Source: an uncultured Fibrobacterota bacterium | GTDB lineage: Bacteria > Fibrobacterota > OXYB2-FULL-49-7 > JAEUSG01 | Reading direction: 5' to 3' | Assembly: GCA_964590225.1 (NCBI GenBank) | Contig: CAZPWS010000011.1 | Location: 4,136-68,135, forward strand | DNA: 64,000 bases | Shown: positions 28,199-58,767 of the stretch, piece after piece | Numbering within the stretch: position 1 is the first letter of the stretch | Layout: each line of letters begins with the position of its first letter | Position numbers and translations under genes: made by a program | The notes under the pieces: model-generated | Databases searched by the model: none | Told to the model about the DNA's origin: nothing | What the model saw: the letters and a program-made list of their open reading frames with translations, nothing else

Positions 28199-28271
28199 GG
28201 GGTTTTAGCTCAGTTGGTAGAGCACAACGCTGGCAGCGTTGGGGTCAACGGTTCGACTCCGTTAAGCTCCA
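28199..28271 (+). tRNA. tRNA-Ala (anticodon GGC)
   Basis: 73 nt cloverleaf with anticodon loop CTGGCAG. The acceptor stem carries the G3:U70 wobble pair that is the AlaRS identity element. T-loop GGTTCGACTCC. Confidence 0.85.
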
Positions 28272-28282
28272 CAAAAATATAA

Positions 28283-28318
28283 GAGATTCCGCTTCAAAAA
28301 GCTGGGTCTCTTTTTTAT
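28283..28318 (+). terminator. Weak stem-loop plus T-run downstream of tRNA-Ala
   Basis: CCGCTTcaaaAAGCtGG imperfect hairpin followed by TCTCTTTTTTATTTT. Confidence 0.35.
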
Positions 28319-28327
28319 TTTATACCT

Positions 28328-30283
28328 ATGGCACTATTTAGCACTATGCTGCCAAAGGCAGCCCTTTCCACTCTTGTTGACCGTTTTCCGGATGGCCTGG
28401 CGATTTTTCTGCACGAAAACAATACCCCCATTTATGTTAATGACGCTTTCGCAGCCTTACTATGCCTATCAAAAGAAGCACTTCTAAGCGGCGACGCAAG
28501 GCTCCCCTTTGCAATACCGCAAAATGGAACCCAGCATATCGATTTTAGAAGTCCACTTCGAAGCATAACTCTTGACTGTAAGGTTTTTAACATTAAGCAT
28601 GAAAACTTCAATTTTAGGGCTATCACCATAAGGGATGTTACGGATGTCGTTTACAAGGAAAACATGCTGAAGGAAAAAGAGGAAAGACTCAGACTTGCTT
28701 TTCAGGGTGCACAAAACGGAATATGGGACTGGGACTTACGAACCGGCAAAATGCATTTTTCGCCTGAGTGGAAGATTATGATAGGTTGCGCGGAAAACGA
28801 AGTTTCAGACCATCCGGATGCATGGTTTAAACGAGTTCATGACATGGATATGCCGGTTCTTCAAAATGCCATACAGGAGCATCTCCGCGGTAAAACACAG
28901 CATTTCAAGTGTCAATACAGAATTCTCCACAAAGATTTCTCCTATAAATGGATGCTTTGCAGTGGCGCCGCAATTAACGGACCCGATAACCGACCGGCAC
29001 GGCTTACAGGTGTCCAAGTTGATATTACCTCACAAAAAGAAAATGAAACAAGGCTCAAGGAAGCACTTGATGACTTGCAATTAGCACTCACATCCGAAAG
29101 GCTCCTGCTTCAAGAGCTTGATCGAAAAAACAAGGAATTAACTGAGCTGTCCATTACTGATGGTTTAACTAAACTTTACAATCATAGATTTCTTCAGGAA
29201 AGATTTGATTTTGAATTCGGTAAAGCAAGACGCTATGGTCAGGTACTATCATGCCTTTTAATAGATATTGACCATTTTAAAAACATAAACGATACATACG
29301 GCCACCAGTTCGGCGATTGCGTACTACGAGATTTATCGCGACTACTCAAAGAAAATTCCCGCGAATCGGATATTTGTGGAAGATATGGAGGCGAAGAGTT
29401 TATGGTTGTATCGTCAATATCTATTGACGACGCGCTGAAATTCGCGCAAAAACTTCACGATGCTGTAGCCTCTTACCCATTTTCTGACGGTACAACAACT
29501 ATTAAGGTTACAATAAGTATCGGCGTTACAGATTATAAAAACGATATAAAAACAAAGCAGGAAATGATTGAGCGGGCAGACAACGCTCTTTATCAAGCCA
29601 AGCACGAAGGGCGTAACACCGTGCGACAATGGAAGGAAAGAAATGACAACGACGACAAAACTATGGACCCCGATGCAATAGAAGGTTTGCGTAACAGTTT
29701 TAACAACCTGACTGAAAAAATGCGTACAACCTACATAGAGTCAACAAACGCACTGGTTAATGCCATAGATGCGAAAGATCACTACACCATGGAACACTCG
29801 CAAAATGTCGCCAATTATGCTGTCGCTCTTGCGAAAGAAATTCACTTGCCAGATAAAACTATCGAGACCATAAAGAACGCCGCCCTACTGCATGATGTTG
29901 GTAAAATTGGAATAGCACAGGAAATACTTCTTAAAAACGGACCTCTTACAAAGGAAGAATTTGAAGTAATGAAACGGCATCCTGTAATTGGTGTCAATAT
30001 TCTTAAAGATGTAAAATTCCTTGAGAAGGAGTTGCCAATTATCCTGCACCATCACGAAAGATTTGATGGAAAAGGATATCCACACGGTCTCAAAGCGTAC
30101 GAAATACCTCTGGGGGCAAGAATTCTCGCTGTGGTGGATGCTTACGACGCAATGACTACAGACAGGCCATACCGAAAAGCGTTATCAAATGAAATTGCTA
30201 TTGAGGAGCTTAGGAAAGGGGCTGGCACCCAGTTTTCAGAAGAGCTAATTGATGCTTTCATAAGAATTATCCGAACTTCATAA
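28328..30283 (+). CDS. PAS-GGDEF-HD-GYP composite c-di-GMP turnover protein
   Basis: PAS-like region (WDWDLRTGKMHFSPEWK), intact GGDEF A-site (RYGGEEFMVV), and an HD-GYP domain (HSQNVANYAVALA ... LLHDVGKIG ... HHERFDGKGYP). Confidence 0.85.
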   Translation: MALFSTMLPKAALSTLVDRFPDGLAIFLHENNTPIYVNDAFAALLCLSKEALLSGDARLPFAIPQNGTQHIDFRSPLRSITLDCKVFNIKHENFNFRAITIRDVTDVVYKENMLKEKEERLRLAFQGAQNGIWDWDLRTGKMHFSPEWKIMIGCAENEVSDHPDAWFKRVHDMDMPVLQNAIQEHLRGKTQHFKCQYRILHKDFSYKWMLCSGAAINGPDNRPARLTGVQVDITSQKENETRLKEALDDLQLALTSERLLLQELDRKNKELTELSITDGLTKLYNHRFLQERFDFEFGKARRYGQVLSCLLIDIDHFKNINDTYGHQFGDCVLRDLSRLLKENSRESDICGRYGGEEFMVVSSISIDDALKFAQKLHDAVASYPFSDGTTTIKVTISIGVTDYKNDIKTKQEMIERADNALYQAKHEGRNTVRQWKERNDNDDKTMDPDAIEGLRNSFNNLTEKMRTTYIESTNALVNAIDAKDHYTMEHSQNVANYAVALAKEIHLPDKTIETIKNAALLHDVGKIGIAQEILLKNGPLTKEEFEVMKRHPVIGVNILKDVKFLEKELPIILHHHERFDGKGYPHGLKAYEIPLGARILAVVDAYDAMTTDRPYRKALSNEIAIEELRKGAGTQFSEELIDAFIRIIRTS

Positions 30284-31143
30284 TGTATATTACCAGTATG
30301 AAGAAGTTTTATTTGATATTGCCATTTCTTCTTTCTGTGATCGGGTGTTCCGGCAGGGGTAAGGAGCTAAAATTTTCCTTTGCGGTTCCCGATACTGTCC
30401 GATATAAAGTCCTTTCTCAGGCAAGCTCACGAACCACTACAGCTTCTTCCACAACTGCCCATTCAACAAGAATCGAAATGACTGTATCGTATTTTGTAAA
30501 AGAACAGCTTGCTAACGGCGACAAAAGGCTACAATTTTCATACGATGATATTAGTTACGAAAATTCACAGGCCGATAAGCATAATACCGATTCCATTATT
30601 AAGGAATTAAAAAGCACACCAATAACTGTAACAATGTCTCCATACGGGGATATTGCCGACGCTACTGGATACGAACAGATACCACGGTTTATGGCGGAAG
30701 ATTTTAACATTTTTACTCTCCTTCTTAAGGCTCTGCCCGTATTTCCTCGTTCGCCTGTACAACCGGGAGCGAAATGGGAAAGGGAACAGGAATATCCAAT
30801 CGAGAATGGCCTTATAAAAGGAAGAATGCTTGTATATAAAAGATTTACACTTATCGATTCTTCCGTGAATGAGAATCCCTTTCTTTCGCTTGTTTCAACA
30901 GACATTTCAATGCGATTTGATGTTCCTGATAATGAAAATTTCTCTATACAACGGGACGGTCAGGAAGAACTTGGCCTTAATGGCCGTGGCGAAATTCGTT
31001 TCGACAGCGACAGAGGCATGGTAACAGATGCAAGAGCGGCCGTATTCGGAAAAATGATAATTGGACTTAAGCATCCAATCACCAAAGAGTCCATTTTAAC
31101 AAAAGTGGAAATTGCTCAAAGTATCCAGGTCTATGAACCATGA
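30283..31143 (+). CDS. Lipoprotein (286 aa), function unknown. The real start is probably the internal ATG at 30298.
   Basis: MKKFYLILPFLLSVIGC has a signal peptide plus lipobox Cys. There is a 1 nt stop/start overlap with the upstream gene. Confidence 0.6.
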   Translation: MYITSMKKFYLILPFLLSVIGCSGRGKELKFSFAVPDTVRYKVLSQASSRTTTASSTTAHSTRIEMTVSYFVKEQLANGDKRLQFSYDDISYENSQADKHNTDSIIKELKSTPITVTMSPYGDIADATGYEQIPRFMAEDFNIFTLLLKALPVFPRSPVQPGAKWEREQEYPIENGLIKGRMLVYKRFTLIDSSVNENPFLSLVSTDISMRFDVPDNENFSIQRDGQEELGLNGRGEIRFDSDRGMVTDARAAVFGKMIIGLKHPITKESILTKVEIAQSIQVYEP

Positions 31144-31865
31144 AAACAAACACTATGGCTATTTCTACTATTGTAATTGTTTGTTTTCTTTTCCACTCCT
31201 TGCAAGCTATTAGCATAAGCGGCACACTGGAAAAAAACACTACATGGTCTTCCGCCGACAACCCTATTATTATTACGGGCAACATTGAAATTCCAGACTC
31301 GGTTGCACTAAAAATCAAGAAGGGAACGATAATTCGCTTCGACGGTTACTATCGTTTACTTGTTCGTGGTTCTTTAGAGGCTGATGGCGAGGCAGGCAGC
31401 GAAGTTGAATTTTCTTCAAATAAAGAGAAACCCTCTGCAAGCGACTGGGAAGGCATAATTTTCTACGGAGAAAAAAGCGGTGGTTACCTAAAGTATTGCA
31501 AGATTCGGCACGCATACAGAAATTTTGTTTGGAAATCTTCGCCCTTTATTCAGTCCTGCACCTTTATAATGAACAATTATGCGATATACTGTTCATATTC
31601 TAAATCTGCTAAGATTATTGACAACTCATTTACAAAAAATAACTTTGCTATCTATTGTGACTATTCAAGTCCGGTAATACAAAAAAACACTATTACCGAT
31701 AACTCTTACGGCATTTACTGTGTTCTCTCATCCGCGCCAATTGTTGGTGAAAATAGAATTGCGGCCAATACAGAGAAAGATATTTACATGGACGATAGTT
31801 TGGGGAAAAATGGTGCAGAAAATGTAAACAACCATGTTTGGGATTTGATGAAAGGTCTTTTTTAA
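31140..31865 (+). CDS. Exported right-handed parallel beta-helix repeat protein (241 aa)
   Basis: Signal peptide. Repeated PbH1-like units (NNYAIYCSYS / NNFAIYCDYS / NSYGIYCVLS). Overlaps the upstream stop (ATGA). Confidence 0.65.
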   Translation: MKTNTMAISTIVIVCFLFHSLQAISISGTLEKNTTWSSADNPIIITGNIEIPDSVALKIKKGTIIRFDGYYRLLVRGSLEADGEAGSEVEFSSNKEKPSASDWEGIIFYGEKSGGYLKYCKIRHAYRNFVWKSSPFIQSCTFIMNNYAIYCSYSKSAKIIDNSFTKNNFAIYCDYSSPVIQKNTITDNSYGIYCVLSSAPIVGENRIAANTEKDIYMDDSLGKNGAENVNNHVWDLMKGLF

Positions 31866-31867
31866 TT

Positions 31868-33073
31868 ATGGCAAAAACACACCCTGGATTCGATCAAGTA
31901 GCGAAAGGTTATCTTTTTCCCGAAATCGGTCGGCGTGTCAGAGCGTATGCTTCGGCAAATCCAAAAGCGAAGATAATGCGACTTGGCATCGGGGACACAA
32001 CACAACCACTACCTTCCATTGTTATAGCAGGGCTCCTTAACGGTGTTAATAAACTCGCAAAGATTGAAACTTATACCGGTTATCAGGACGACAGTTCCGG
32101 CATCCCATCTCTTAAAAATGCCCTTAAGACACGATATCAGAAATTAGGAGTAACCCTTGACCTTGACGATATCTTTGTTAGCGATGGAGCTAAGTCCGAT
32201 TCTGCCAATATCCAGTCGATATTCGATATAAGCAATATAGTGGCCTTTCAAGATCCGGCTTACCCTGTATATGTCGATAGCAACATAATGGCGGGCCGAA
32301 ATAAAAACAACTTCGTTTATATGCCTTGCTCAGAAGAAAACGGCTTTTTCCCTGCCATACCTAATGAAAAGGTTGACATTATTTACCTGTGTAGTCCCAA
32401 CAACCCAACGGGTGGAGTAGCAACCAAAGAACAGCTTAAAAGTTTTGTGAACTACGCTATTGAACAGAAAGCGGTTATTATTTTTGACGCTGCATACAGT
32501 GCATATATTTCCGATCCACTACTCCCCCGCTCAATTTATGAGATACCAGAGGCTAAAAAGTGTGCAATTGAAATAAACAGCTTTTCAAAAGAGGCAGGTT
32601 TCACAGGTGTCCGTTTGGGCTGGACAATTGTACCCAAGGCAATTGTGTGCGAAGATGGCGAAGAAGGAAAGCTGAACAGGCTTTGGACTAGAAGGCAAAA
32701 CACTATGTTCAATGGTGCATCTAATATAGTTCAAGACGGCGGCATAGCCGTTTTGTCCGATGCCGGACAAAAAGAGTGTAACGAAGTTATCGCTTACTAT
32801 ATGGAAAACGCAAAACTGATCCTTAATGGCGTAAAAGAAAAGGGGCTCGTTGCCTTTGGTGGTATAAACGCCCCATATATCTGGATGAAAACTCCAAATG
32901 GAATGGCATCGTGGGACTTCTTTGATAAACTATTGAACGAGGCTCATGTTGTCGGTACACCCGGTAGCGGTTTCGGCGCAAGCGGAGAGGGATATTTTCG
33001 TCTGAGTGCCTTTGGTATTAGGGAGAATGTTATTGCGGCAATTGACTCTATAAACAAAAATCTTAAATTATGA
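31868..33073 (+). CDS. dapL: LL-diaminopimelate aminotransferase
   Basis: AKGYLFPEIGRRV N-terminal hallmark of DapL and a fold-type I PLP aminotransferase (SFSKEAGFTGVRLGW carries the PLP Lys). The ORF track starts at 31838. The ATG at 31868 is 2 nt after the upstream stop and fits better. Confidence 0.8.
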   Translation: MAKTHPGFDQVAKGYLFPEIGRRVRAYASANPKAKIMRLGIGDTTQPLPSIVIAGLLNGVNKLAKIETYTGYQDDSSGIPSLKNALKTRYQKLGVTLDLDDIFVSDGAKSDSANIQSIFDISNIVAFQDPAYPVYVDSNIMAGRNKNNFVYMPCSEENGFFPAIPNEKVDIIYLCSPNNPTGGVATKEQLKSFVNYAIEQKAVIIFDAAYSAYISDPLLPRSIYEIPEAKKCAIEINSFSKEAGFTGVRLGWTIVPKAIVCEDGEEGKLNRLWTRRQNTMFNGASNIVQDGGIAVLSDAGQKECNEVIAYYMENAKLILNGVKEKGLVAFGGINAPYIWMKTPNGMASWDFFDKLLNEAHVVGTPGSGFGASGEGYFRLSAFGIRENVIAAIDSINKNLKL

Positions 33074-33291
33074 TAAACGAACAGTCGGTAGAGGAATTTT
33101 CCTCCATTCTTCATGATCTCAACAACATTATTAATACCCTCAACGGCTATGCCGAACTGCTAATCGAAGCCTCAAAGCAGAATAGTCAGGATGAGGTGCA
33201 ACTCTATAAAGAAAAGATAGTAGCAACAGTAATTAACAAGCTACCTCTTGCAAAAAGCATTGCTCAACGGATGCAACAGTTAGAAATTTAA
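33070..33291 (+). CDS. 73 aa protein with a HisKA-like H-box (phosphoacceptor/dimerisation helix only)
   Basis: FSSILHDLNNIINTLNGYAELL resembles the histidine-kinase H-box HDLNNxL. ATGA overlap with the dapL stop. Confidence 0.45.
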   Translation: MINEQSVEEFSSILHDLNNIINTLNGYAELLIEASKQNSQDEVQLYKEKIVATVINKLPLAKSIAQRMQQLEI

Positions 33292-35680: not shown

Positions 35681-38404
35681 ATGCAGCAGTTATTTGCGCT
35701 ACTCTTTTTAATTTTCTCGTCTGTTATTCTCGGCGATAATGTTTCCGACTCTATGCTTTTATCGTACTTTGATGCATCTCTTTTGCCGGTAATGTTTATA
35801 CTTAACGCAATCCTACTGTTTATCGTATCTGCCTTTTTTATGACCTTAATAGATAGAGTTGACCGCGGCTACTTACTAATAGGCGTTCTTGTCAGCCACC
35901 TAATAATACTGTCTGCAGTAAAAGTTGCAATAACATTAAAAATATTCGTAGCCTGTCCATTTTTGTACTCTTATTCCTATTCATCTAAAATGATTTTATT
36001 TATGGTTTTCTGGACAGTTGTCAATGATATTATTGATGCACGGGATGCAAAAAGGCTGTTCCCACGAATAGCAGCAGGTGGCGTACTTGGTGGAATCACA
36101 ATCTCCTTTGTTGCGGCTATATTTGCCCCTAGCCTCGGCGCAGAAGGGCTTATGGTTGTATGGCTTGCAATTGTTAGCGCAGCTATTCCTCTCTCGTTCG
36201 CGATACATAAAAAATTCATGCCACATTTAAAGGCTACACGCGAGCCATCAACATCATCATCTCTTTTTCAAAGGCTAACAGACTTTCGTTTAATCCGCAA
36301 TGACAATCTGCTACGGCATATGGCGATTATCTATTTTCTTACCTTCATTCTCTTATACGCGAACGATTTTATATTTCTTTCAACACTTAAAGAAAATTTT
36401 CTTTCGGCGCGCAATAGCCTAATAGAAGCGATCGATCCATCGCTGATACTTGGCCTATTAAGTGGCGGCGATGCCGATGCACTGATCTTAAAAAAGGCAG
36501 TGCCAACTTTTCTTGGACTTTTTAAAGGAATAGCAAACACACTTACCTTGATAATTCAGTTTACAATAGCAGGTTTTATTCTCCGTAGTCTTGGAACCGT
36601 AAAAGCTATGCTTGTTATGCCAATTTGCCTCTTTTTTATTTATGGTTCAATGGTAGCGGTCAAGTTTCTTAATTTTCCAGATATTGCCCCACTAGGATAT
36701 CCTTTTTTCGGAAATCTTTTATTCACAACTGTACTATTTGGTCTTACCGCGAGAATCGCGCTTTTCGACGCGATTTATTCACCCAATTTCCAAATTTTCT
36801 TTTCTGCACTAAATAAAGACATTAGGGGAAGAGGAAAAATCCTTATCGAAGGCCTTATAAAACCATTCGCCATTCTTGCAGCCGGACTTTTTATACTTAC
36901 ATTTTATGAATCCCACCCTACTGGTTCGCTTATCTCTCTATTTGTTTTTTCGTTTGTACTAATCGTGATATGTCTTTTAATAAAAAAATCATATACAAAG
37001 AGCATTGCGAAATCGCTCGGAGACGGTAGAGAGGAAAGACTTGAAACCCTGCTGCACTCCGACAAAGAGAAAGAAGAAAACGCCATCCCCTTTCTTCAGG
37101 ACTTTATTGAGGACACCGATACAGAAATAGCTGAATTCGCGACTTTCACGCTAGCTTCTTTGAGTGGAGATGAACCCCCAAAGCTTCTATGGGGACGCTT
37201 CTCTCGAGCGAGTGAGTCTGAAAAAATACACTTTCTTCGTGTCATATTACCGCTAAAAGATATGCGATATATACGGCTCTATGAAGCTGGTCTTTTTAGC
37301 ATCTCGGGCGATGTAACGGCAACATCACTTGAGGCTATTATTAAATTAGGAATACCAATAGATACTTCTCGCATATCCAGATTTGTCAACAGTAATCATG
37401 ACGGAGTGAGAGCGGCAGCGGCAGTTGCACTATGGAAGAATGGTTCTGCAAGCGAAAAACAGATGCTGCAAACTGTTTTGCGTGAGGTGCTATTTGCATC
37501 CGATACATCTTATCTTAAATTTGGTATTAGAGCACTTGCAGCCTCCTCTGATTCTTCGCTCTGGCCCTTGCTTGAAATGGGATTAAATAGAGCGCTACTG
37601 CTCGGTACAGACTATACGAGAATAGCAATTGAGGCCGCCTCCTCCATAAACGATATCAGGGCATGTAGGTGGTTAATGACACAAATACCTCTTTTAGAAG
37701 GAACCGTTCTGGATCTTATTGATAAACATCTTTCACTGTATTTGCATGAGTATCCTGAACTTGTTGAAGAGGCTTTTAATAGTCCATGCGCGGTTCTGCG
37801 AATACATACCGTCAAGGCCCTTGTCAACAGGAGTAAAGACAATGACGAAGCAATTACAACTCTACTTGAGGATCTGCTTGAAACTGAAGTACAACTTATG
37901 TTTCGCTATGCGTCGTACACATCCATACTGCTGCCAGAAAGCGATGGTGAAAAACTTTTATCTGATGCTGTTAACGAGCGAAAAATATCCACCAACTTAT
38001 CGCACTTTCTAATGATATGCGCGGCACTCTATCCAAATTCGGGACTAAAAGCTGCGGCGAATAGAATTAAAAGCATAAATAAACATGTAAGAGCCTCAGC
38101 CCTTGAGCTGCTTGATAATACAACATCAATCCGTCCTGTTAAGCTTTTTCTAAAGCTTATCGACAAACCGGACCATTCGTGGATACGAGATACGCTTCGC
38201 AAGGAGTGGCGAGAGGAAACGCCAACGCGCCTTTCCGTTATCAAAACATTATCTGAAGAGTCTGATGCATGGATACGAATGCTCGCTATTTACGCTGCAT
38301 TGGAACACGACAGAGCTTTTGGAAACACAGAATTTCTCGATGCAATTGACCTAAACAGGGTAAGCGCTCTTGCACTTATGGCGGAGGTAATTGAAGATGG
38401 CTGA
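35681..38404 (+). CDS. TLC/NTT-like (ATP/ADP-translocase family) polytopic membrane domain fused to a ~450 aa cytoplasmic HEAT-repeat array
   Basis: The N-terminal ~440 aa has 10-12 predicted TM helices. WTVVNDIIDARDAKRLFPRIAAGGVLGGI parallels the TLC signature WQFANQIT..AEAKRFY..FG.LANL. The C-terminus carries repeated HEAT/PBS-lyase-like helices (VRAAAAVALWK..., LRIHTVKALVN..., VRASALELLDN..., IRMLAIYAALE...). Confidence 0.65.
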   Translation: MQQLFALLFLIFSSVILGDNVSDSMLLSYFDASLLPVMFILNAILLFIVSAFFMTLIDRVDRGYLLIGVLVSHLIILSAVKVAITLKIFVACPFLYSYSYSSKMILFMVFWTVVNDIIDARDAKRLFPRIAAGGVLGGITISFVAAIFAPSLGAEGLMVVWLAIVSAAIPLSFAIHKKFMPHLKATREPSTSSSLFQRLTDFRLIRNDNLLRHMAIIYFLTFILLYANDFIFLSTLKENFLSARNSLIEAIDPSLILGLLSGGDADALILKKAVPTFLGLFKGIANTLTLIIQFTIAGFILRSLGTVKAMLVMPICLFFIYGSMVAVKFLNFPDIAPLGYPFFGNLLFTTVLFGLTARIALFDAIYSPNFQIFFSALNKDIRGRGKILIEGLIKPFAILAAGLFILTFYESHPTGSLISLFVFSFVLIVICLLIKKSYTKSIAKSLGDGREERLETLLHSDKEKEENAIPFLQDFIEDTDTEIAEFATFTLASLSGDEPPKLLWGRFSRASESEKIHFLRVILPLKDMRYIRLYEAGLFSISGDVTATSLEAIIKLGIPIDTSRISRFVNSNHDGVRAAAAVALWKNGSASEKQMLQTVLREVLFASDTSYLKFGIRALAASSDSSLWPLLEMGLNRALLLGTDYTRIAIEAASSINDIRACRWLMTQIPLLEGTVLDLIDKHLSLYLHEYPELVEEAFNSPCAVLRIHTVKALVNRSKDNDEAITTLLEDLLETEVQLMFRYASYTSILLPESDGEKLLSDAVNERKISTNLSHFLMICAALYPNSGLKAAANRIKSINKHVRASALELLDNTTSIRPVKLFLKLIDKPDHSWIRDTLRKEWREETPTRLSVIKTLSEESDAWIRMLAIYAALEHDRAFGNTEFLDAIDLNRVSALALMAEVIEDG

Positions 38405-38861
38405 TCAAAAGATGGATGCCTTGCGGTTTCTTGAAAATGTAATTTTCCTGCGAAAACATACGCTTTTTTCCGGCTTACAAACTGGAGAACTGAGAGCCCT
38501 TGCCCTCATTGCAAAAGAAATACCCTTGATAAGTGGTGAATACGCAGTAAGAGAAGGAGATGCCGGAGATTCTTTTTTTATTGTTAAGTCCGGTACTCTT
38601 CTTGTTGTTAAGGATGAGGGAAAAATTACTCTAGCCCGCATCGAGCAAGGGGGCTGTTTTGGAGAAATGGCATTATTTGAAGATGGCACACTTCGTTCAG
38701 CAGATGTCAGGGCAGATGGGCCAAGCATACTTCTTTCCTTTCAACGGGAAGACTTTTTTGATGTGCTAAGCCGACAACCGAGAATTGCAATTGAGTTGCT
38801 TGTACTGTTCAGTCGCCGTATCAGAGAACTCAACGAAAAGCTATCTGCGGAGAAATTATAA
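38391..38861 (+). CDS. Stand-alone cyclic-nucleotide-binding (cNMP/CAP-effector) domain protein, 156 aa
   Basis: Canonical cNMP cassette FGEMALFEDGTLRSADVRA. It overlaps the upstream gene by 14 nt and the downstream gene by 1 nt. Confidence 0.7.
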   Translation: MKMADQKMDALRFLENVIFLRKHTLFSGLQTGELRALALIAKEIPLISGEYAVREGDAGDSFFIVKSGTLLVVKDEGKITLARIEQGGCFGEMALFEDGTLRSADVRADGPSILLSFQREDFFDVLSRQPRIAIELLVLFSRRIRELNEKLSAEKL

Positions 38862-40291
38862 TGGGTAAAACTGGATTTGCTACTCTATTTATAGTAGCTA
38901 CAATGTTGCTTAACTGTGTAGCAACGCGACAGGTTTCGATAACGGTTCGAATGATGCCAGAACAGGAAAAATATTTTAAAGAGAACATTCTTTCTCCTTT
39001 CGAAAAGAAGCATAAATGCCGTATTACGGTTAATTCCTACGATCACCCAGCATCATTAGATACAATGCTTATGGATGGTGCAAAAAATACTATTCTTGTT
39101 AAAGTTCCCTTTGAAGCCACCAGGCATGTCGCCGAAACCAAGCTATTAAAACCTATCGACTCTATAGTTAATACTAAGGAATTTACAGAAATTAAAAACC
39201 GTTATTTTCTGATGCAACTCGCGGCTTTTGATGGCCAAACATATTACTTTCCGAGAAAATTTGAAACAAGAATAGTTGTAGCATTAAAAAGTAAAATAAA
39301 CGAAGCTATTAGGATGTGGGGCGGACATCGAGAAGCAATTGATTCGGTACTTAAGACATACAACGGATACGGTCTTCCGAGCGGATATACTTTGGAAGCT
39401 AATCCCGATGAATGGGACTATTTCGATGTATTTGTCGCTGGCTGGTACTGGGCAAGATCTGACTCAACAAAGTTTATGCCACGAATTGCGCATCGAAGCA
39501 AAAGATACTCAGGCACATGCCAAAGACTTGTTGATAGGATTATATCGCTTGGAGGGAACAGTAGCTCAATAATGAAAATGGAAGGACCAGAAACCGATGG
39601 CTCCTTTATATGGGAAGCGCTCTATGCACGAGAAAAAATTTATCATCCATCAATGATCAAAGATGGATGGTCGGGAGTGGACATATGGAATGGTTTTAAA
39701 AAAGGCGAAGTATATCTTGCTTTCATGACACAACTTGATGCCTTTTTTATACACGGCGATGACGCAGGAAAACAGGCTGGTTATATTGCGAATCCTGACG
39801 ATCTTACTTTTGCTGTTATGCCTAAAGGTGTCTCGCTTGAATTATCATCGGAAGGAAAGCCCCTGTTTGTTGGAACAAACTCCGTATCAACTGGTGGGTG
39901 GTGGTGGGGTATCCCTGTAAATTCCCCCGACTATAAACTCTCTTTACTCCTTGCAGAGTGGATACTCGCTTCTGCCAATCAAACAACCGAAGCAAGCAAT
40001 TTTGGAATGATACCAGTGCGAAAAGATATCTTGAGTGACATCGGGTTGCTGTTTGGAAGAACATGGATTGCTGATATCTATAACACTTCACTCAAACAAC
40101 TCGTTTATAACCGTTATAATACAGTTCCTGTTCATGATAAATATGCTGAGGTAGAATCAATTTATCTTGACGCTTTCGACGACATAGTAATAAAGGGAAA
40201 CAACGGTCCAACAAACAGTGGCATGATTTCATACATTGGGAAAATATTGGAACCTTACCGATCTAAGGCATATATCATTTCAAACAAGTAA
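38861..40291 (+). CDS. Periplasmic solute-binding protein (SBP_bac_1-like) lipoprotein, with no adjacent ABC permease or ATPase
   Basis: Signal peptide with LLNC lipobox-like Cys. 476 aa. Aromatic blocks WDYFDVFVAGWYWA and GGWWWGIP are typical of family-1 sugar-binding proteins. Confidence 0.55.
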   Translation: MGKTGFATLFIVATMLLNCVATRQVSITVRMMPEQEKYFKENILSPFEKKHKCRITVNSYDHPASLDTMLMDGAKNTILVKVPFEATRHVAETKLLKPIDSIVNTKEFTEIKNRYFLMQLAAFDGQTYYFPRKFETRIVVALKSKINEAIRMWGGHREAIDSVLKTYNGYGLPSGYTLEANPDEWDYFDVFVAGWYWARSDSTKFMPRIAHRSKRYSGTCQRLVDRIISLGGNSSSIMKMEGPETDGSFIWEALYAREKIYHPSMIKDGWSGVDIWNGFKKGEVYLAFMTQLDAFFIHGDDAGKQAGYIANPDDLTFAVMPKGVSLELSSEGKPLFVGTNSVSTGGWWWGIPVNSPDYKLSLLLAEWILASANQTTEASNFGMIPVRKDILSDIGLLFGRTWIADIYNTSLKQLVYNRYNTVPVHDKYAEVESIYLDAFDDIVIKGNNGPTNSGMISYIGKILEPYRSKAYIISNK

Positions 40292-49144: not shown

Positions 49145-50107
49145 TTAATTGAAGATGCCTGCTGCCACTGAGAGGACCATTTCTCTGGCCTTATTAATGT
49201 CGGCCACAATTGTACAACCGGAAGCGGCTTCATGACCGCCGCCATCAAAACGAGAAGCCATATTCCTCACATTTACACCGCCGTAAGAACGAAAACAGAC
49301 CTTTGTTTTTTCTTTTTGCTCAATAAGAAGAATACCAACCTCAACACCTTTAATAGAAAGTGTATAATTGGAGAGTCCTTCAAGGTCCGACTCCCTCGCG
49401 CCCGATTCAACCATATCCGACAAGCTTATTTGCATTACACAAAGTGCCCCACCAAAGTAAATTTGCATACTGCTATACATCTTTGCTTCAATTAGAATTC
49501 GAGACATTTCTTTATCGAGAAAAATCCTACGATATAACTCATGAGGCTGCGCGCCATATTCAATTAGTTTTGCGGCAATAGATAATGTATTGGCAGTCGT
49601 ATTAGAGAAACGAAATCCTCCCGTATCCACAAGCAGACCGGAATAAAGTGCAGACGCAGAAATTGCATCCGGCACGACACCAAGCTCCGTAAATAATTCA
49701 TAAATCATTTCAACAGTAGCCGCAGAATTACCGTTTATCCAGTTAACATCACCATAGGCCGGATTATCACCGTGATGATCGATAACTACAAGCTTTCTGC
49801 CCGCCCGTAATTTTACAGTACCAGTCCTCTCGTATCGAGATGTATCGAGAACAATCCAGGTATCCGCGACCTCTGCCTCCGGCGAGACAGCTGTCTGAAT
49901 ATGAACTGTTTCTTCGATAAACGAATGCGGTTTGGACAATCTGCCTTCGTTAATTATAAAACTCTTTTTACCCAACGCCAATAAGAGCCGTTGAAGTGCA
50001 ACACACGAACCAACGCCATCGGCATCAGGGTTAATATGAGTTGTAAGTATGAAGGTTTTACCTTCATGAATACTATTCAGAACTTGTTGAGGAATCATTT
50101 TTGCCAA
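49145..50107 (-). CDS. nrnA: DHH-family phosphoesterase (NrnA-like oligoribonuclease/pAp phosphatase)
   Basis: DHH motif (VVIDHHGDN) and a DHHA1-like C-terminus. A later Met may be the true start, because the track start overlaps rbfA. Confidence 0.7.
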   Translation of the reverse strand: MAKMIPQQVLNSIHEGKTFILTTHINPDADGVGSCVALQRLLLALGKKSFIINEGRLSKPHSFIEETVHIQTAVSPEAEVADTWIVLDTSRYERTGTVKLRAGRKLVVIDHHGDNPAYGDVNWINGNSAATVEMIYELFTELGVVPDAISASALYSGLLVDTGGFRFSNTTANTLSIAAKLIEYGAQPHELYRRIFLDKEMSRILIEAKMYSSMQIYFGGALCVMQISLSDMVESGARESDLEGLSNYTLSIKGVEVGILLIEQKEKTKVCFRSYGGVNVRNMASRFDGGGHEAASGCTIVADINKAREMVLSVAAGIFN

Positions 50108-53089: not shown

Positions 53090-53125
53090 ATTACACTTCC
53101 CTTCAGTACAATAGCACCAAAACAA

Positions 53126-54295
53126 CTACCCTCTTTTAGACCGCGCCGATGTAGATGCAAGAGGATCAGCGTGAACATCAGCCTCAGCAACAGTTATATC
53201 TTCTTCGGAATCCTGCATACCTTTAGTTAACGCCGCCTCTCTCTCCTCTTCCGACATCTTTGCAAAATCATCTGTTCCAAAAACATCTATCTGCTTCTTA
53301 AGCAATTTACTTACAAGGCGAATATTCTGCCCACTCTTACCTATGGCCTGCGCAAGATTTTCCTGCTGTACTATAGAAACAATTTTGTTGTCTCCGACGA
53401 AATAAATTTTCTTAACTTCGGAAGGCTGAAAAGCCCGCTTAACATATACATCAAGATTATCGTTCCAGTGAACAATATCGATTCGCTCACCTGACAACTC
53501 CCTAACTATTGCTTGTACCCTGTTTCCCTTCATTCCAACGCAAGAGCCTACCGGATCAATCCTATCGTCCTTGGAATACACAGCAATCTTCGCTCGCTTG
53601 CCAGGATCCCTTGCTACACCTTTGATTTCAACAATTTTATCGTAGATTTCAGGCACTTCAAGCTCAAATAGTTTTACAAGAAACTGCGGATGCGTTCTGG
53701 ACAATATTACCTGTGCACCAGATGTACCATCATCAACTTTGAGTATATATGCCCTGATGGTGTCGCCTTGCCTGTACTTTTCTCCACGGATTTGCTCGTT
53801 TGGAGGAATAATTGCCTCTGTACGGCCAAGATTAACAAGAATAATTCCACGGTCAACTTGCTGTACTGAACCGGTAATAAGCTCACCAACCCTGTCCTTA
53901 TAGTCCTCAAAAATTTTCCGTCTTTCGAGATCACGAATCCTTTGCACAACCATCTGCTTTATGGAGAGTATGATAGTGCGTCCGAATTCATCAAGGGTAA
54001 TATCACGGACAATCTGATCGCCTACCTCAACATCCGGTTCGATCTCCTGAGCCTCTTCAAGAAGCATCTCCTTTTCTTCGTTTCCTTCCGTGTAGGCATC
54101 AACAACATTTACAACAAGTTGTATTTCGATTCCGCTTGTTACTCTATTGATTTTTACATCAATAAACTTATCAAGTTCGAGATATCGCTTAGCAGCGGTG
54201 ACAAAAGCCCCCTTAATTGTGTCCTCTACTACACCCTGTGAAATGTTTTTCTCTTTTGAGATCTGCATTATCAGCTCGTTCACATCAAGATTCAT
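53126..54295 (-). CDS. nusA: Transcription termination/antitermination factor NusA
   Basis: NusA N-terminal domain, S1 and two KH domains. 389 aa, with no C-terminal AR repeats. Confidence 0.9.
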   Translation of the reverse strand: MNLDVNELIMQISKEKNISQGVVEDTIKGAFVTAAKRYLELDKFIDVKINRVTSGIEIQLVVNVVDAYTEGNEEKEMLLEEAQEIEPDVEVGDQIVRDITLDEFGRTIILSIKQMVVQRIRDLERRKIFEDYKDRVGELITGSVQQVDRGIILVNLGRTEAIIPPNEQIRGEKYRQGDTIRAYILKVDDGTSGAQVILSRTHPQFLVKLFELEVPEIYDKIVEIKGVARDPGKRAKIAVYSKDDRIDPVGSCVGMKGNRVQAIVRELSGERIDIVHWNDNLDVYVKRAFQPSEVKKIYFVGDNKIVSIVQQENLAQAIGKSGQNIRLVSKLLKKQIDVFGTDDFAKMSEEEREAALTKGMQDSEEDITVAEADVHADPLASTSARSKRG

Positions 54296-54320
54296 GTAGC
54301 TCCTCCAAATTATTTAACAG

Positions 54321-54767: not shown

Positions 54768-54794
54768 GCCAAAAGAACCTATCTTCTCCACAAG

Positions 54795-54825
54795 AAAAAA
54801 AAATGGGGTCTTTGGTCAAGACCCC
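54795..54825 (-). terminator. Perfect 8 bp GC-rich hairpin plus a 9-nt T-run on the minus strand, between truA and rimP
   Basis: Plus strand shows AAAAAAAAAT-GGGGTCTT-tggtc-AAGACCCC. On the minus strand this reads as stem GGGGTCTT/AAGACCCC with a 5 nt loop followed by UUUUUUUUU. Confidence 0.5.
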
Positions 54826-54889
54826 GAACCCGTAAACAACGATTCATTGTAAAGATAATCAATGTTATTGGCTCAACACAAGACTTGGT

Positions 54890-55624: not shown

Positions 55625-56656
55625 TTACTTCGTTACTTTTACGCAGAGCTGACCACAAGCCGCGTCAATATCCCTGCCCCTGCTCTTTCTAACTGTAACT
55701 ATTACAGGACTTCTTAACAATGGAGCCATAAACAAATCAACCTCTTTTTCTGTTGGTGGATGAAATTCACTTTTTCTATATGAATCGTTATAAGGAATCA
55801 GATTTATTTTTGATGGTAACCGGGAAAGCCTTTTAGCAAGAGTTGCCGCGTCACTTGGAGAGCAATTTACCCCCCCAATCATCACATATTCAAAAGTAAT
55901 CTTTTCTCCTGTTATTCTCGCATAATTTGCAGCATGTTTTAAAAGAGTATCCATATCAAGCTCATATGCGTGAGGTATCAGAGTCTTTCTAATTTCATCA
56001 TTGGGGGCGTGCAATGAAACAGCAAGCCCAACGCCTCCCCCCTCTTTTGCGAGCCGTTCGAAACCCTCAATAATTCCCACCGTGGAGACCGTTATTCGCT
56101 TTGGGCTTATGCAAAAGGCTTCTTCAGAAACAACAACTTTTATTGAAGCCAAAACCGCATCGAGATTGTCTAATGGTTCACCCATTCCCATATAGACTAT
56201 ATTTGATATTCTCTCTTTCGTCAATAATCTTTTTGCTGCAATTATCTGGTTAAGTATTTCCCCTGTTGATAGGTTTCTTTTAAAACCCATCGATGCAGTT
56301 GCGCAAAGGCGACAACCCCGGGCACAGCCAACCTGAGTTGAAATACAAAGAGTAGTCCTCTTTTCGTCTGGAATAATTACACTCTCTACCGCAAGCCCAT
56401 CCCTAAGACGGAGAAGAAATTTTTTTGCACCATCGCTGGAAACCTGCAAATTCTCAATAACCGGTTCGTCGATATCAAATGAATCCGACAATGTCAATTT
56501 GAGTGCTGAATTAAAATTTGTTATGGACTCAAAATCAGAAACACACTTATTATAAAGCCATGTAAAAAGCTGGCGCGAACGAAATGCTTTTTCTCCTTTG
56601 GTGACAAACCACTCCTCAAGTTCAGCAAGCGGCAAGTCCTTTACAGAAAGCCTCAT
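55625..56656 (-). CDS. rlmN: Radical-SAM 23S rRNA/tRNA adenine-C2 methyltransferase RlmN/Cfr family
   Basis: STQVGCARGCRLCATA radical-SAM cluster motif in an RlmN context and a C-terminal Cys. 343 aa. Confidence 0.8.
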   Translation of the reverse strand: MRLSVKDLPLAELEEWFVTKGEKAFRSRQLFTWLYNKCVSDFESITNFNSALKLTLSDSFDIDEPVIENLQVSSDGAKKFLLRLRDGLAVESVIIPDEKRTTLCISTQVGCARGCRLCATASMGFKRNLSTGEILNQIIAAKRLLTKERISNIVYMGMGEPLDNLDAVLASIKVVVSEEAFCISPKRITVSTVGIIEGFERLAKEGGGVGLAVSLHAPNDEIRKTLIPHAYELDMDTLLKHAANYARITGEKITFEYVMIGGVNCSPSDAATLAKRLSRLPSKINLIPYNDSYRKSEFHPPTEKEVDLFMAPLLRSPVIVTVRKSRGRDIDAACGQLCVKVTK

Positions 56657-57747
56657 TTTTTTTTCTGAAGCGGCACAATATCCGTTCCACCATACATTCC
56701 AATGTCATTCACCGTGCCATCATTATCGTTGTACGCTCTTCCTTTTTCACCAGCATCAATAAGGCGTGAATAGCGGGAGAGCTGCCACGGCTTGTGCGGT
56801 TTCTTCCATTCATTTTCCCTTTTTACCGAAGCGGGAATTGACTCAACAATTGTGCGAGAAAGCCGCTTATTTGCCACATCAGAATCAATTGTATCGGTGG
56901 CGACAGTAACATCCCTTCTTATACTATCAAGATGGCTATTCGAACCCATAAAAACCGGATCAATAAAAATGTTTTCACCGTCGTCGCACGCATCCTTTCT
57001 ATGATTTATCTTCCGTATAAGTCCATACTCTGGCGGACAGTCGATAAGATGTCCGTCGAAATTGCCCCAGAATGCGTTATTTTTGACAACAAAGCGGCTC
57101 AACTTGTCACCAATAATGGCCGCGAAATTATAAGCAATTATATTGCTTGACAATAACGGATTAGAATTTTTTATTGTTACCGCAGCAGCCCGATTGTATA
57201 GCACATTGTTATTTCTTATTTGCGCTATACTGCCATTTTCAACTACAATTCCCTGATGATTTGCCACTATAAGATTATTCCTAATAATTGGAGAAGAATT
57301 CAGCAGTGTTACTGCTCTAAATGCACCTCTGATATCGGTATAGGCGACTGTTCCGGTACTCGCTCTATCATCTTCAAATATAATTCCATACCAAACTGGT
57401 TCATTGGCGGCAGAGTCGGAAATATCAGGACCAATCGAAATCCTGTTATTACTTGCGCCTACGCAATCAAGCCTTCCCTTGACTATAATTGCCGGCAATT
57501 CGCTTTCCTTTGCAATTGGATGGTCAACTGCTACCGTGCATAAAGTGGATTTTTGAATACGAATAACTGTTCCGGGCATAACAGTAACTGTAGTTTTATA
57601 GGGTATCAATACTGTGCCCGTAATCGTATATGGCCCTTTTTGAGGCTGCAATAACAGATCGTTATCTATCACACCACATAATTTTACTTCTGCCCTCACA
57701 GTAGCGAAAATGAACAGCAAAAACGCAATAGCGGCAAAACGGTTCAT
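56653..57747 (-). CDS. Exported right-handed parallel beta-helix protein (364 aa), paralogous at its N-terminus to the 31140-31865 product
   Basis: Signal peptide. PbH1-like repeats (NNLIVANHQGIVVENGSIAQIRNNNVLYNRAAAVTIKNSNPLLSSNIIAYN). The shared N-terminal module is PYTITGTVLIPYKTTVTVMPGTVIRI versus NPIIITGNIEIPDSVALKIKKGTIIRF. Confidence 0.65.
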   Translation of the reverse strand: MNRFAAIAFLLFIFATVRAEVKLCGVIDNDLLLQPQKGPYTITGTVLIPYKTTVTVMPGTVIRIQKSTLCTVAVDHPIAKESELPAIIVKGRLDCVGASNNRISIGPDISDSAANEPVWYGIIFEDDRASTGTVAYTDIRGAFRAVTLLNSSPIIRNNLIVANHQGIVVENGSIAQIRNNNVLYNRAAAVTIKNSNPLLSSNIIAYNFAAIIGDKLSRFVVKNNAFWGNFDGHLIDCPPEYGLIRKINHRKDACDDGENIFIDPVFMGSNSHLDSIRRDVTVATDTIDSDVANKRLSRTIVESIPASVKRENEWKKPHKPWQLSRYSRLIDAGEKGRAYNDNDGTVNDIGMYGGTDIVPLQKKK

Positions 57748-58701
57748 CTAATCCTCCACAGATATATCATTGAGCCTAAACATTGAGGCAGCAAGAATGG
57801 CTGCCACTTTTTTTGCATTTACAGATATCTTTGCGGTCTCTTTAGTTTTGCCCTCAAGCAAAGTTTTTTCATCAAAATTCACCACTTCCATCTGAGCAAG
57901 TTCTGTCATGAAATCACCATTAGAAAACAGCTTATCAGCACCTTCACCAAGCTTTGTAAGCGATAATTCACACATGCCATCTTTCTCACCCTTGGCGACC
58001 TTCACTGCATCGTAAAGAACCCGCAGTACGGTGATTGCCTCAACAGACAATGGCTGACTGGCTTCTATAGAAGAATCCGCAATTTCTCCCCGCTTATAAC
58101 TGGCAAATAGCTCGATGGCCGATTTATCCGGAACCTGAATACGGTTATTACCGATAGCTATTAGTTTATGTCTTTCAATCTCCTTTAAAGCGGCAAGAAC
58201 ACGGTCGTGCGGTAGGCTCATTATTTCCATTATTTCGTTTTTTGCAAATTTTAGATCAAGTTCATCGTGGCCTGATAACGAATCTTCCTTTTTCCTGTTT
58301 ATCATAAGAGTCAACATAGTGGCAATGTTTGCCACAGTGTCCGAATCGAGGGAGGCTCGCACCTTTCTATCGGTATCCCTAAGGCGAGTGCATAATATCC
58401 TAATGATTGCCAAAAACCACTCGGGCATCTGGTGTGATCGCTTCTCAAACTCCTCAACAGAGATAACCGAAGCCTCAACCTCATCAATTGCTTCTACCGT
58501 TGCAGAACGGGAGCGGCCATCAAGCATGGACATTTCACCAACTATGCCACCCTTGCCAATTTCACACAAGTCAATTCGTTGTCCCTTTTCCGTCCTGTAA
58601 ACTTTCACCTTACCGCGGTGTAATAAATACATCTCACGACTTCTATCATTTTCTCTGAAAAGAACTGAACCGCTTACAAAAATTTTATTTACAGGTGCCA
58701 T
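57748..58701 (-). CDS. cNMP-binding domain protein (317 aa) with an uncharacterised C-terminal helical domain
   Basis: N-terminal cNMP cassette (LCEIGKGGIVGEMSMLDGRSRSATVEA). Its stop abuts the start of the downstream beta-helix gene (57747/57748). Confidence 0.7.
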   Translation of the reverse strand: MAPVNKIFVSGSVLFRENDRSREMYLLHRGKVKVYRTEKGQRIDLCEIGKGGIVGEMSMLDGRSRSATVEAIDEVEASVISVEEFEKRSHQMPEWFLAIIRILCTRLRDTDRKVRASLDSDTVANIATMLTLMINRKKEDSLSGHDELDLKFAKNEIMEIMSLPHDRVLAALKEIERHKLIAIGNNRIQVPDKSAIELFASYKRGEIADSSIEASQPLSVEAITVLRVLYDAVKVAKGEKDGMCELSLTKLGEGADKLFSNGDFMTELAQMEVVNFDEKTLLEGKTKETAKISVNAKKVAAILAASMFRLNDISVED

Positions 58702-58767
58702 ACTATCTGTAAAATTAAGGCATTAGCGCATAAGTTTGCAAGTTTCACCTGAAATATCTGATTATAT

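What the first reader, a model, noticed from the sequence alone, without database searches (positions are those of the whole stretch)
31140..31865. Recurring pairing of a nucleotide-signalling gene with an exported beta-helix paralogue
The 241 aa beta-helix protein here and the 364 aa one at 56653-57747 share an N-terminal module (approximately TxxxxPYxITGxVxIPxxxxxxIxxGTxIRF) followed by PbH1 repeats. Each lies directly downstream of a nucleotide second-messenger protein. Here it is GGDEF-HD-GYP, with one lipoprotein in between. There it is a cNMP-binding protein with no gap. Two independent occurrences within 30 kb suggest a functional cassette, with the beta-helix protein as a secreted or surface output (adhesin or polysaccharide lyase-like) of the signalling protein.
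Basis: seen in the sequence. Interest (0 to 1): 0.6.

Follow-up and report, generated by a model that had tools for sequence, protein, structure and literature searches.

The report
Split cyclic-nucleotide receptor and beta-helix gene block
The two exported beta-helix genes are distant relatives from a single conserved gene block built around a CRP-like cyclic-nucleotide receptor; the block was split in this genome, so the pairing is real but not two independent events, and its function is still unknown.

Summary
A241 (31140-31865) and B364 (56653-57747) are homologous, collinear, signal-peptide-bearing right-handed beta-helix proteins, and each sits behind a nucleotide-signalling gene.

The two occurrences are not independent. 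In 7 of 12 related lineages (Fibrobacterota and Raymondbacteria MAGs) both genes lie in one divergent locus: RlmN<-B<-cNMP receptor <> lipoprotein->A->DapL. A tree of A puts this arrangement as ancestral and the window's 25-kb separation as derived.

- **The cNMP protein** is a CRP-family homologue with an invariant cyclic-nucleotide phosphate-binding motif.
- **The GGDEF-HD-GYP neighbour** occurs only in this genome. The two sister lineages carry a class I adenylate cyclase in the same slot. Two other lineages have a Ser/Thr kinase or RlmN there.
- **The shared N-terminal module** is generic. It occurs, often reiterated, in more than 6,800 protein clusters, many of them closer to A than B is.
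- **Fold and sorting signals:** A's fold matches the whole pectin-lyase-like superfamily without a specific family, and there is no T9SS domain.
- **The lipoprotein** is predicted to be a beta-barrel like the N-terminal barrel of lipovitellin and vitellogenin.

A link to cyclic-nucleotide signalling is plausible but unproven. The interest is modest.

The parts
28199..28272 (+). tRNA-Ala(GGC), followed by a hairpin plus T-run, directly upstream of the GGDEF gene. It marks the left edge of the lineage-specific junction.
   Evidence: ARAGORN, Rfam, sequence read.
28328..30283 (+). PAS-GGDEF-HD-GYP protein (651 aa). The RESD I-site, GGEEF, HD and GYP motifs are all present. It is the lineage-specific upstream neighbour of the lipoprotein-A pair.
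   Evidence: Pfam GGDEF 8e-44, HD_5 3e-38, PAS_3 1e-16; NCBIfam; motifs read in the translation. BLAST found no homologue of it in any related locus.
30281..30297 (+). Conserved AT-rich element TAATGTATATTA-N5 immediately before the probable lipoprotein start (ATG at 30298). It is a likely -10 or 5' element of the pair's own promoter.
   Evidence: Same element before the lipoprotein gene in L011 and L013, and a TATATTAT-like box in L001 and L026-L028. Its function is inferred.
30298..31143 (+). Lipoprotein (DUF6263; lipobox ...VIGC). The ORF finder starts it at 30283. Its stop overlaps the start of A241 by 4 bp. The predicted fold is a beta-barrel with internal helices.
31140..31865 (+). A241: signal peptide, about 80-aa cap module, about 5 PbH1 coils, flexible linker, then an invariant C-terminal helix ...NNHVWDLMKGLF.
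31868..33073 (+). Class I/II aminotransferase (DapL-like), co-transcribed 2 nt after A241. It is a conserved downstream neighbour.
   Evidence: Pfam Aminotran_1_2, gene calls, synteny.
55625..56656 (-). RlmN, with a 4-bp overlap with the end of B364. It is a conserved downstream member of the receptor-B operon.
   Evidence: Pfam RlmN_N and Radical_SAM; synteny.
56653..57747 (-). B364: signal peptide, cap module with an 18-aa insertion, PbH1 coils, and a conserved 130-aa C-terminal region ending ...IDAG...DGT.NDIG.
57748..58701 (-). CRP-family cyclic-nucleotide receptor (317 aa): cNMP-binding domain with invariant GEM..DG..RSA, a winged-helix region, and a C-terminal extension of about 120 aa.
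   Evidence: Pfam cNMP_binding 6e-20. PDB CAP/CRP aligned over residues 8-186. NCBIfam CRP 1.8e-16, below its cut-off. HTH_Crp_2 is above cut-off in the L016 orthologue. Alignment A5.
58712..58741 (-). Promoter-like element of the receptor gene: TTGCAA-N18-TAATTT. It is conserved as TTGCCA-N18-TA(A/T)T.. in L001, L027 and L028.
   Evidence: Read from the sequences. Its function is inferred.

Best explanation
A241 and B364 are distant paralogues, each a single 'cap + PbH1' beta-helix unit. Both belong to one vertically inherited gene block of a Fibrobacterota/Raymondbacteria lineage. In that block, a CRP-family cyclic-nucleotide receptor is co-transcribed with periplasmic beta-helix B and RlmN. 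It is transcribed divergently from a translationally coupled pair, a DUF6263 lipoprotein and the small periplasmic beta-helix A, followed by DapL.

In the window's clade a rearrangement broke the block between the two promoters. The lipoprotein-A half now lies directly behind an enzyme that makes or degrades a nucleotide messenger: a class I adenylate cyclase in the sister lineages and PAS-GGDEF-HD-GYP here.

Proposed working:
- A cyclic nucleotide, probably cAMP, is sensed by the CRP-like receptor, which controls its own B operon and the divergent lipoprotein-A operon.
- The lipoprotein and A are made in equal amounts and form a membrane-tethered periplasmic complex. A's invariant C-terminal helix is the likely docking element.
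- Together with B, the complex binds or processes an envelope glycan or other ligand.

Shown: homology, export signals, conservation of the block, its ancestral state and the split, the intact cNMP-binding motif, and intact GGDEF/HD-GYP motifs. Inferred: the regulation, the complex, and the biochemical role.
For: - **Homology:**
- **One divergent locus** in L001, L002, L003, L016, L023, L026 and L027.
- **Ancestral state:** in the NJ tree of A, the window and the adenylate-cyclase lineages form a 99%-bootstrap clade nested among lineages with the divergent locus.
- **Receptor-B operon also separate in a sister MAG** (L025).
- **Synteny outside the six-gene block is not conserved**. By established comparative-genomics reasoning, conserved divergently transcribed pairs that include a regulator tend to be regulator-target pairs.
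- **Receptor:** a CRP homologue over both domains, with an invariant phosphate-binding motif.
- **Adenylate cyclase:** the class I assignment is confirmed by Pfam, 1.4e-44 and 2.3e-29, and the gene occupies the same slot as GGDEF-HD-GYP.
- **Background is low:** BLAST with the GGDEF, cNMP and cyclase queries found no other such gene in about 100 kb of related loci and only one more in the window. By my rough estimate, two signalling neighbours among about four independent neighbour changes is therefore unlikely by chance (roughly 0.001-0.02).
- **Coupling and constraint:** the 4-bp lipoprotein/A overlap is conserved in most lineages (L003 and L026 have a 3-4 nt gap). A is as conserved as DapL (51-69% identity, against 34-47% for B and the lipoprotein), which points to a constrained enzyme or complex subunit.
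Against: - No CRP-type operator or other shared palindrome was found in the intergenic regions.
- The putative recognition helix of the receptor is poorly conserved and lacks the usual basic residues, so DNA binding is uncertain.
- Two lineages have non-nucleotide neighbours: a Ser/Thr kinase in L024 and RlmN in L028, where the receptor and B are absent.
- The lipoprotein gene keeps its own promoter-like element in all lineages, so it need not depend on the upstream gene.
- RlmN and DapL are equally faithful neighbours, so conserved order alone does not prove shared function.
- No c-di-GMP or other riboswitch is present.
- The enrichment estimate is post hoc and rests on few events.
- The fold gives no specific biochemical assignment.
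Confidence: 0.5

Rival explanations
1. Inherited gene order only. The six genes stay together because they form two compact operons in a housekeeping region. The receptor, cyclase and GGDEF-HD-GYP genes are neighbours without any functional tie to the beta-helix proteins.
For: RlmN and DapL, which are clearly unrelated in function, are conserved just as tightly. Overlapping or abutting genes are common throughout the window. The lipoprotein gene has its own promoter-like element. L024 and L028 lack a nucleotide-signalling neighbour. No operator or riboswitch was found.
Against: The divergent junction between the receptor and lipoprotein genes is not held together by co-transcription, yet it is kept in 7 lineages whose RlmN is only 46-59% identical, while outer flanks differ. 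After the junction broke, two different nucleotide-messenger enzymes occupy the same slot against a very low background.
Confidence: 0.3
2. One reading: two independent cassettes, in each of which the beta-helix protein is the secreted adhesin or polysaccharide-lyase-like output of the adjacent signalling protein.
For: Both proteins carry signal peptides and a pectin-lyase-like fold. Both follow a signalling gene.
Against: The cassettes share a single origin. GGDEF-HD-GYP is a neighbour only in this genome. There is no T9SS or other secretion domain. A is only about 215 aa when mature and evolves as slowly as core enzymes, which is unlike an adhesin. There is no family-specific lyase match and no DPHD epimerase motif.
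Confidence: 0.08
3. Split autotransporter-like export pair: the lipoprotein is an outer-membrane barrel, and A is a passenger whose C-terminal helix plugs the barrel.
Confidence: 0.05
4. Cyclic-nucleotide-based anti-phage defence (Pycsar- or CBASS-like) with the cNMP-binding protein as effector.
For: PADLOC models of Pycsar TIR effectors hit the receptor at E 2e-15.
Against: The hits cover only the shared cNMP-binding domain. There is no TIR or transmembrane effector domain and no defence cyclase, and A, B and the lipoprotein have no PADLOC hits. The block is a vertically inherited core locus.
Confidence: 0.01

Closest known systems
CRP/CAP-family cAMP receptor regulators with divergently transcribed target operons
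   Same: The receptor aligns to E. coli CAP over residues 8-186, covering both the cNMP-binding and helix-turn-helix regions. The phosphate-binding Glu and Arg-Ser are invariant. The divergent arrangement with a neighbouring operon is conserved. A class I (CyaA-type) adenylate cyclase is a neighbour in sister lineages.
   Different: It has about 120 extra C-terminal residues with no known domain. The recognition helix is not conserved. No TGTGA-N6-TCACA box was found. It scores far below the NCBIfam CRP equivalog cut-off (60 against 266 bits). It is co-transcribed with an exported beta-helix protein and RlmN.
NosD, the periplasmic beta-helix component of the NosDFY/NosL N2O-reductase maturation system
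   Different: TIGR04247 scores are 23.8 and 16.4 bits against a cut-off of 300. No NosF, NosY or NosZ genes were seen nearby. A is about half the size of NosD. The lipoprotein here is DUF6263, not NosL.
Giant multi-unit beta-helix surface proteins (thousands of uncharacterised clusters)
   Same: A's 81-aa cap module and the following PbH1 coils match single units of these proteins at 30-38% identity and up to 110 bits.
   Different: A and B are free-standing single units of 241 and 364 aa. They have their own C-terminal ends and sit in a conserved core locus.
Periplasmic or secreted CASH-type polysaccharide enzymes (AlgG C5-epimerase, pectate and alginate lyases, phage tailspikes)
   Different: Sequence identity is only 9-15%. 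There is no DPHD motif. No family stands out from the rest, and no sequence-level hit to any solved structure was found.
N-terminal beta-barrel of large lipid transfer proteins (lipovitellin, vitellogenin, ApoB, MTP) and LolA/LolB-type lipoprotein carriers
   Different: There is no sequence-level relationship (11-12% identity, no Pfam Vitellogenin_N hit). The model has medium confidence and rests on 11 sequences.

Membership tests
Right-handed parallel beta-helix / pectin-lyase-like superfamily (Pfam Beta_helix PF13229) | PbH1 repeat profile above the curated cut-off | tested here: met
   A scores 50.2 bits and B 47.8 bits against a cut-off of 25.9.
Right-handed parallel beta-helix / pectin-lyase-like superfamily (Pfam Beta_helix PF13229) | Right-handed beta-helix fold | tested here: met
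   [not shown]
NosD (TIGR04247, N2O-reductase maturation) | Full-length family score above cut-off | tested here: not met
   23.8 bits (A) and 16.4 bits (B) against a cut-off of 300.
NosD (TIGR04247, N2O-reductase maturation) | Genomic association with NosF/NosY ABC transporter genes and nosZ | tested here: not met
   No such genes were found among the annotated ORFs of the window (most ORFs of at least 150 aa scanned with Pfam) or in related loci.
T9SS cargo proteins | C-terminal sorting domain (Por_Secre_tail, TIGR04183/PF18962) | tested here: not met
   No hit in the Pfam or NCBIfam scans of A or B. A has only about 25 residues after the helix.
CRP/FNR transcription factors | N-terminal cNMP-binding domain with the phosphate-binding cassette (Glu, Arg-Ser/Thr-Ala) | tested here: met
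   PF00027 at 71.4 bits. GEM..DG..RSA is invariant in 9 orthologues.
CRP/FNR transcription factors | C-terminal Crp-type helix-turn-helix that binds DNA | tested here: inconclusive
   The alignment to CAP runs through residue 186. HTH_Crp_2 scores 28.6 bits against a cut-off of 27 in the L016 orthologue but is not reported for the window protein. The recognition helix is variable, and no operator was found.
GGDEF-HD-GYP c-di-GMP turnover proteins | GGDEF and HD-GYP domains with catalytic motifs | tested here: met
   Pfam GGDEF 149.7 bits and HD_5 131.7 bits. RESD, GGEEF, HD and GYP were read in the translation. Activity was not tested.
Class I adenylate cyclase (neighbour in L011 and L013) | Adenyl_cycl_N and Adenylate_cycl domains above cut-off | tested here: met
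   152.9 and 102.8 bits against cut-offs of 27.
DUF6263 (PF19777) | Profile score above cut-off | tested here: met
   27.9 bits against 26.7, which is borderline and covers only residues 84-141.
Pycsar/CBASS-type defence | Cyclase plus a cNMP-activated effector domain (TIR, transmembrane or nuclease) | tested here: not met
   Only the cNMP-binding domain matches. There is no effector or cyclase, and A, B and the lipoprotein have no hits.
Type V (autotransporter/two-partner) secretion | Integral outer-membrane beta-barrel translocator | tested here: inconclusive
   [not shown]

The most novel reading that the evidence does not exclude
The receptor-B and lipoprotein-A units form a previously undescribed envelope system controlled by cyclic nucleotides. 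Selection keeps the lipoprotein-A pair beside a nucleotide second-messenger gene even after rearrangements (CRP-like receptor, then class I adenylate cyclase, then GGDEF-HD-GYP). The small, highly constrained beta-helix A docks through its invariant C-terminal helix into a vitellogenin-N-like barrel lipoprotein, and this complex is a dedicated output of, or feedback sensor for, second-messenger signalling.
Probability: 0.2. Interest if true: 0.6.

Novelty: new variant of a known kind. Interest (0 to 1): 0.35.

Why it matters
If the link is functional, it defines an uncharacterised four-gene envelope module governed by cyclic nucleotides: a CRP-like receptor, two periplasmic beta-helix proteins and a barrel lipoprotein. 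The module occurs in uncultured Fibrobacterota and Raymondbacteria lineages, whose signalling outputs are essentially unknown. It would also give a first context for DUF6263.

More generally, the case shows that apparently repeated gene pairings within one genome can be fragments of a single ancestral locus. Such repeats should not be counted as independent evidence.

Tried and rejected
- **Operator search:** no canonical CRP box (TGTGA-N6-TCACA) had fewer than 3 mismatches in any relevant intergenic region, and no shared palindrome was seen. The only conserved elements are promoter-like.
- **Riboswitch scan:** Rfam on the window and nine loci found only tRNAs.
- **Generic promoter and terminator scan:** no more hits than in shuffled sequence.
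- **Sequence searches of solved structures with the A and B profiles:** nothing significant. NosD scored E 0.8, and a spurious Cam1 hit scored E 0.59.
- **Foldseek against the PDB for A:** only generic hits, E>=8e-3.
- **Pfam on the isolated N-terminal modules, B's C-terminal region and the receptor's C-terminal extension:** no family.
- **PADLOC defence models:** only the shared cNMP domain matched.
- **Literature searches** for DUF6263 and for beta-helix/CRP/cyclase/lipoprotein operons found nothing relevant.
- **Genome and metagenome pattern scans** gave few extra loci, 3 and 6, so a true genome-wide paralogue survey of the source organism was not possible.
- **tRNA identity near related loci** showed no shared rearrangement site.

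Full report
**Observation.**
- A241 (31140-31865, +) and B364 (56653-57747, -) both begin with typical signal peptides and both pass the Pfam Beta_helix and NosD cut-offs.
- They align at 24% identity over about 200 residues, E 1e-14.
- Profiles built from their orthologue families align collinearly from the mature N-terminus: hhalign 99.7%, E 1.2e-25, A 20-210 against B 21-233.
- The N-terminal modules alone are similar beyond shuffled controls: 27.7 bits against a maximum of 19.6.
- No further paralogue lies in the 64-kb window.
- Upstream of A lie a DUF6263 lipoprotein and a PAS-GGDEF-HD-GYP protein with intact RESD, GGEEF, HD and GYP motifs. Directly upstream of B lies a cNMP-binding protein.
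- The arrangement recurs in several independent assemblies.

**The shared N-terminal module is generic.**
- A's residues 24-104, searched against 1.84 billion cluster representatives, retrieve 6,850 proteins at E<=1e-3 and 1,344 at E<=1e-10. The best are giant proteins of 1,000-7,600 aa carrying 3-14 copies.
- In those proteins the module alternates with Pfam Beta_helix/NosD stretches, and no local Pfam model covers it.
- Of the top 150 representatives, 114 contain a unit more similar to full-length A (up to 110 bits, 30-38% identity) than B is at 58.9 bits.
- A and B are therefore homologous single 'cap + PbH1' units of a very large superfamily. They are not a close or exclusive pair.

**One ancestral locus, not two occurrences.**
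- A has a small, very well conserved family: 20 clusters at 49-79% identity, from MAGs labelled Fibrobacteres/Fibrobacterota, with one labelled Elusimicrobia. A Candidatus Raymondbacteria MAG also carries it.
- Genomic contexts were recovered for 12 distinct lineages.
- In seven of them (L001, L002, L003, L016, L023, L026, L027) both beta-helix genes lie in a single divergent locus: RlmN<-B<-cNMP receptor <> lipoprotein->A->aminotransferase.
- A neighbour-joining tree of A places the window and the two adenylate-cyclase lineages in one clade (99% bootstrap), nested among lineages with the divergent locus. The divergent locus is therefore ancestral and the window's 25-kb separation is derived.
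- Of the ORFs of at least 150 aa in the intervening 25 kb, all but two were scanned, and they are mostly housekeeping genes: OTC, a fucosidase, PNPase, RibF, TruB and a DHH phosphoesterase. InfB, NusA, RimP and TruA, at 50435-55615, were identified only from their translations. It also holds a HEAT-repeat protein, a second cNMP-binding protein and a 339-aa ORF with no Pfam family. This points to a chromosomal rearrangement rather than an insertion.
- In a sister MAG the receptor-B-RlmN operon is likewise on a different contig from lipoprotein-A (L025).

**What replaced the receptor next to the lipoprotein-A pair.**
- In the two sister lineages (L011/L012 and L013), the gene directly upstream and co-directional is a class I adenylate cyclase of 655-658 aa, with Pfam E-values of 1.4e-44 and 2.3e-29.
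- In the window, the same slot holds PAS-GGDEF-HD-GYP (651 aa), preceded by tRNA-Ala and a terminator-like hairpin.
- The more distant L024 has a divergently transcribed Ser/Thr kinase.
- L028 has RlmN divergent from the lipoprotein gene, with the receptor and B missing.
- BLAST with the GGDEF, cNMP and cyclase queries found no other such gene in about 100 kb of related loci and only one more in the window, a 156-aa cNMP-binding protein at 38391-38861. The background frequency is therefore roughly 1-2%.
- By my rough, post hoc estimate, two nucleotide-messenger enzymes among about four independent neighbour changes is unlikely by chance (about 0.001-0.02).

**Components.**
- **Receptor.** It is a CRP-family homologue. 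E. coli CAP aligns over residues 8-186, covering both domains. An orthologue passes HTH_Crp_2. The phosphate-binding cassette GEM..DG..RSA is invariant in nine orthologues. It differs from CRP in three ways: about 120 extra C-terminal residues with no known domain, a variable recognition helix, and scores far below the CRP equivalog cut-off.
- **Rate of evolution.** Across lineages A is as conserved as DapL: 51-69% identity, against 63-70% for DapL in the lineages with the divergent locus, 46-59% for RlmN, and 34-52% for the receptor, B and the lipoprotein. This is unlike a fast-evolving adhesin.
- **B.** It has an 18-residue insertion in the cap and a conserved 130-residue C-terminal region ending in the common IDAG...DG..NDIG motif. 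It was not modelled.

**Regulatory sequence.**
- A promoter-like TTGCCA/TTGCAA-N18-TA(A/T)T.. element precedes the receptor gene in several lineages and in the window at 58712-58741.
- A TATATTA(T) box lies 5-8 nt before the lipoprotein start in most lineages and, in the window, immediately after the GGDEF stop. This makes ATG 30298 the likely start of the lipoprotein gene.
- No CRP-type operator and no riboswitch were found.

**Explanation and rivals.**
- The best-supported account (confidence about 0.5) is a conserved module in which a CRP-like cyclic-nucleotide receptor is linked to two exported units, B and lipoprotein + A. The block was split in this lineage, and a messenger-making enzyme was recruited or retained next to lipoprotein-A. 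The regulation, the lipoprotein-A complex and a glycan- or ligand-directed role are all inferences.
- The main rival (about 0.3) is inherited operon order without any functional tie. Three points support it: RlmN and DapL are conserved just as faithfully, two counter-example lineages exist, and no operator was found.
- A split autotransporter-like pair is improbable.
- A Pycsar-like defence system is effectively excluded.

**Novelty and score.**
- The parts are new members of known superfamilies.
- The four-gene arrangement and its serial association with three different nucleotide-signalling genes are undescribed. The literature searches found nothing relevant.
- The evidence for function is contextual and rests on few events.
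- I rate it a new variant of a known kind (a regulator with a neighbouring exported-protein operon), with interest 0.35.

Noticed in passing
window 28199-28327: tRNA-Ala(GGC) is followed by a hairpin and a T-run that ends about 10 nt before the GGDEF-HD-GYP start codon. This leaves no obvious room for a separate promoter, so the operon may be read through from the tRNA promoter, or the true start may be the ATG six codons downstream (the 645-aa product called in L006 and L007).
   Followed up: partly
window 30283-30298 and 31838-31868: The ORF-finder starts are probably too early. The lipoprotein likely starts at ATG 30298 (it aligns with orthologue N-termini and follows a conserved TATATTA element). 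The aminotransferase likely starts at ATG 31868 (401 aa, as called in L005-L008) rather than at TTG 31838.
   Followed up: partly
window 33070-33291: A 73-aa ORF lies between the aminotransferase and OTC genes and carries a histidine-kinase H-box-like motif (ILHDLNNIINTLNGYAELL). It has a weak NCBIfam hit to the phosphoacceptor region of a VirA-like kinase. A 78-79-aa ORF sits at the same position in L011 and L013. It may be a free-standing DHp-like small protein.
   Followed up: no
window 35681-40291: A second cNMP-binding protein (156 aa, 38391-38861, domain only) overlaps the end of a 907-aa HEAT-repeat protein and abuts a 476-aa extracellular solute-binding protein. This is another case in the window of a cNMP-binding gene directly upstream of a solute-binding protein, which is presumably exported (its signal peptide was not checked).
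   Followed up: partly
window 58768-60342: A 524-aa metallohydrolase of the CehA/McbA family (PHP-like; NCBIfam 94 bits against a cut-off of 80) is now the divergent neighbour of the CRP-like gene, in the position the lipoprotein gene holds in relatives.
   Followed up: partly
[not shown]
   Followed up: partly
L028 730-3437: In this lineage the receptor and B genes are both missing from between RlmN and the lipoprotein gene, yet the promoter-like TTGCCA element remains. The receptor and B seem to be lost or moved as a unit.
   Followed up: partly
L024 2-1573: In the most divergent lineage, the divergent neighbour of lipoprotein-A is a Ser/Thr protein kinase (cut by the contig end), and the downstream aminotransferase is only 29% identical to the window's.
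   Followed up: partly
window 49145-50107: A DHH/DHHA1 phosphoesterase (NrnA-like) lies between the TruB and InfB genes, next to a NusA-InfB gene cluster. Enzymes of this family can degrade pGpG and nanoRNA, which may matter for c-di-GMP turnover by the HD-GYP protein.
   Followed up: no
window 31815-31865 (A241 residues 226-241): The C-terminal 12-16 residues of A (..NNHVWDLMKGLF) are almost invariant across 20 family members and are predicted to form a helix after a disordered linker. This looks like a docking peptide for an unknown partner.
   Followed up: partly
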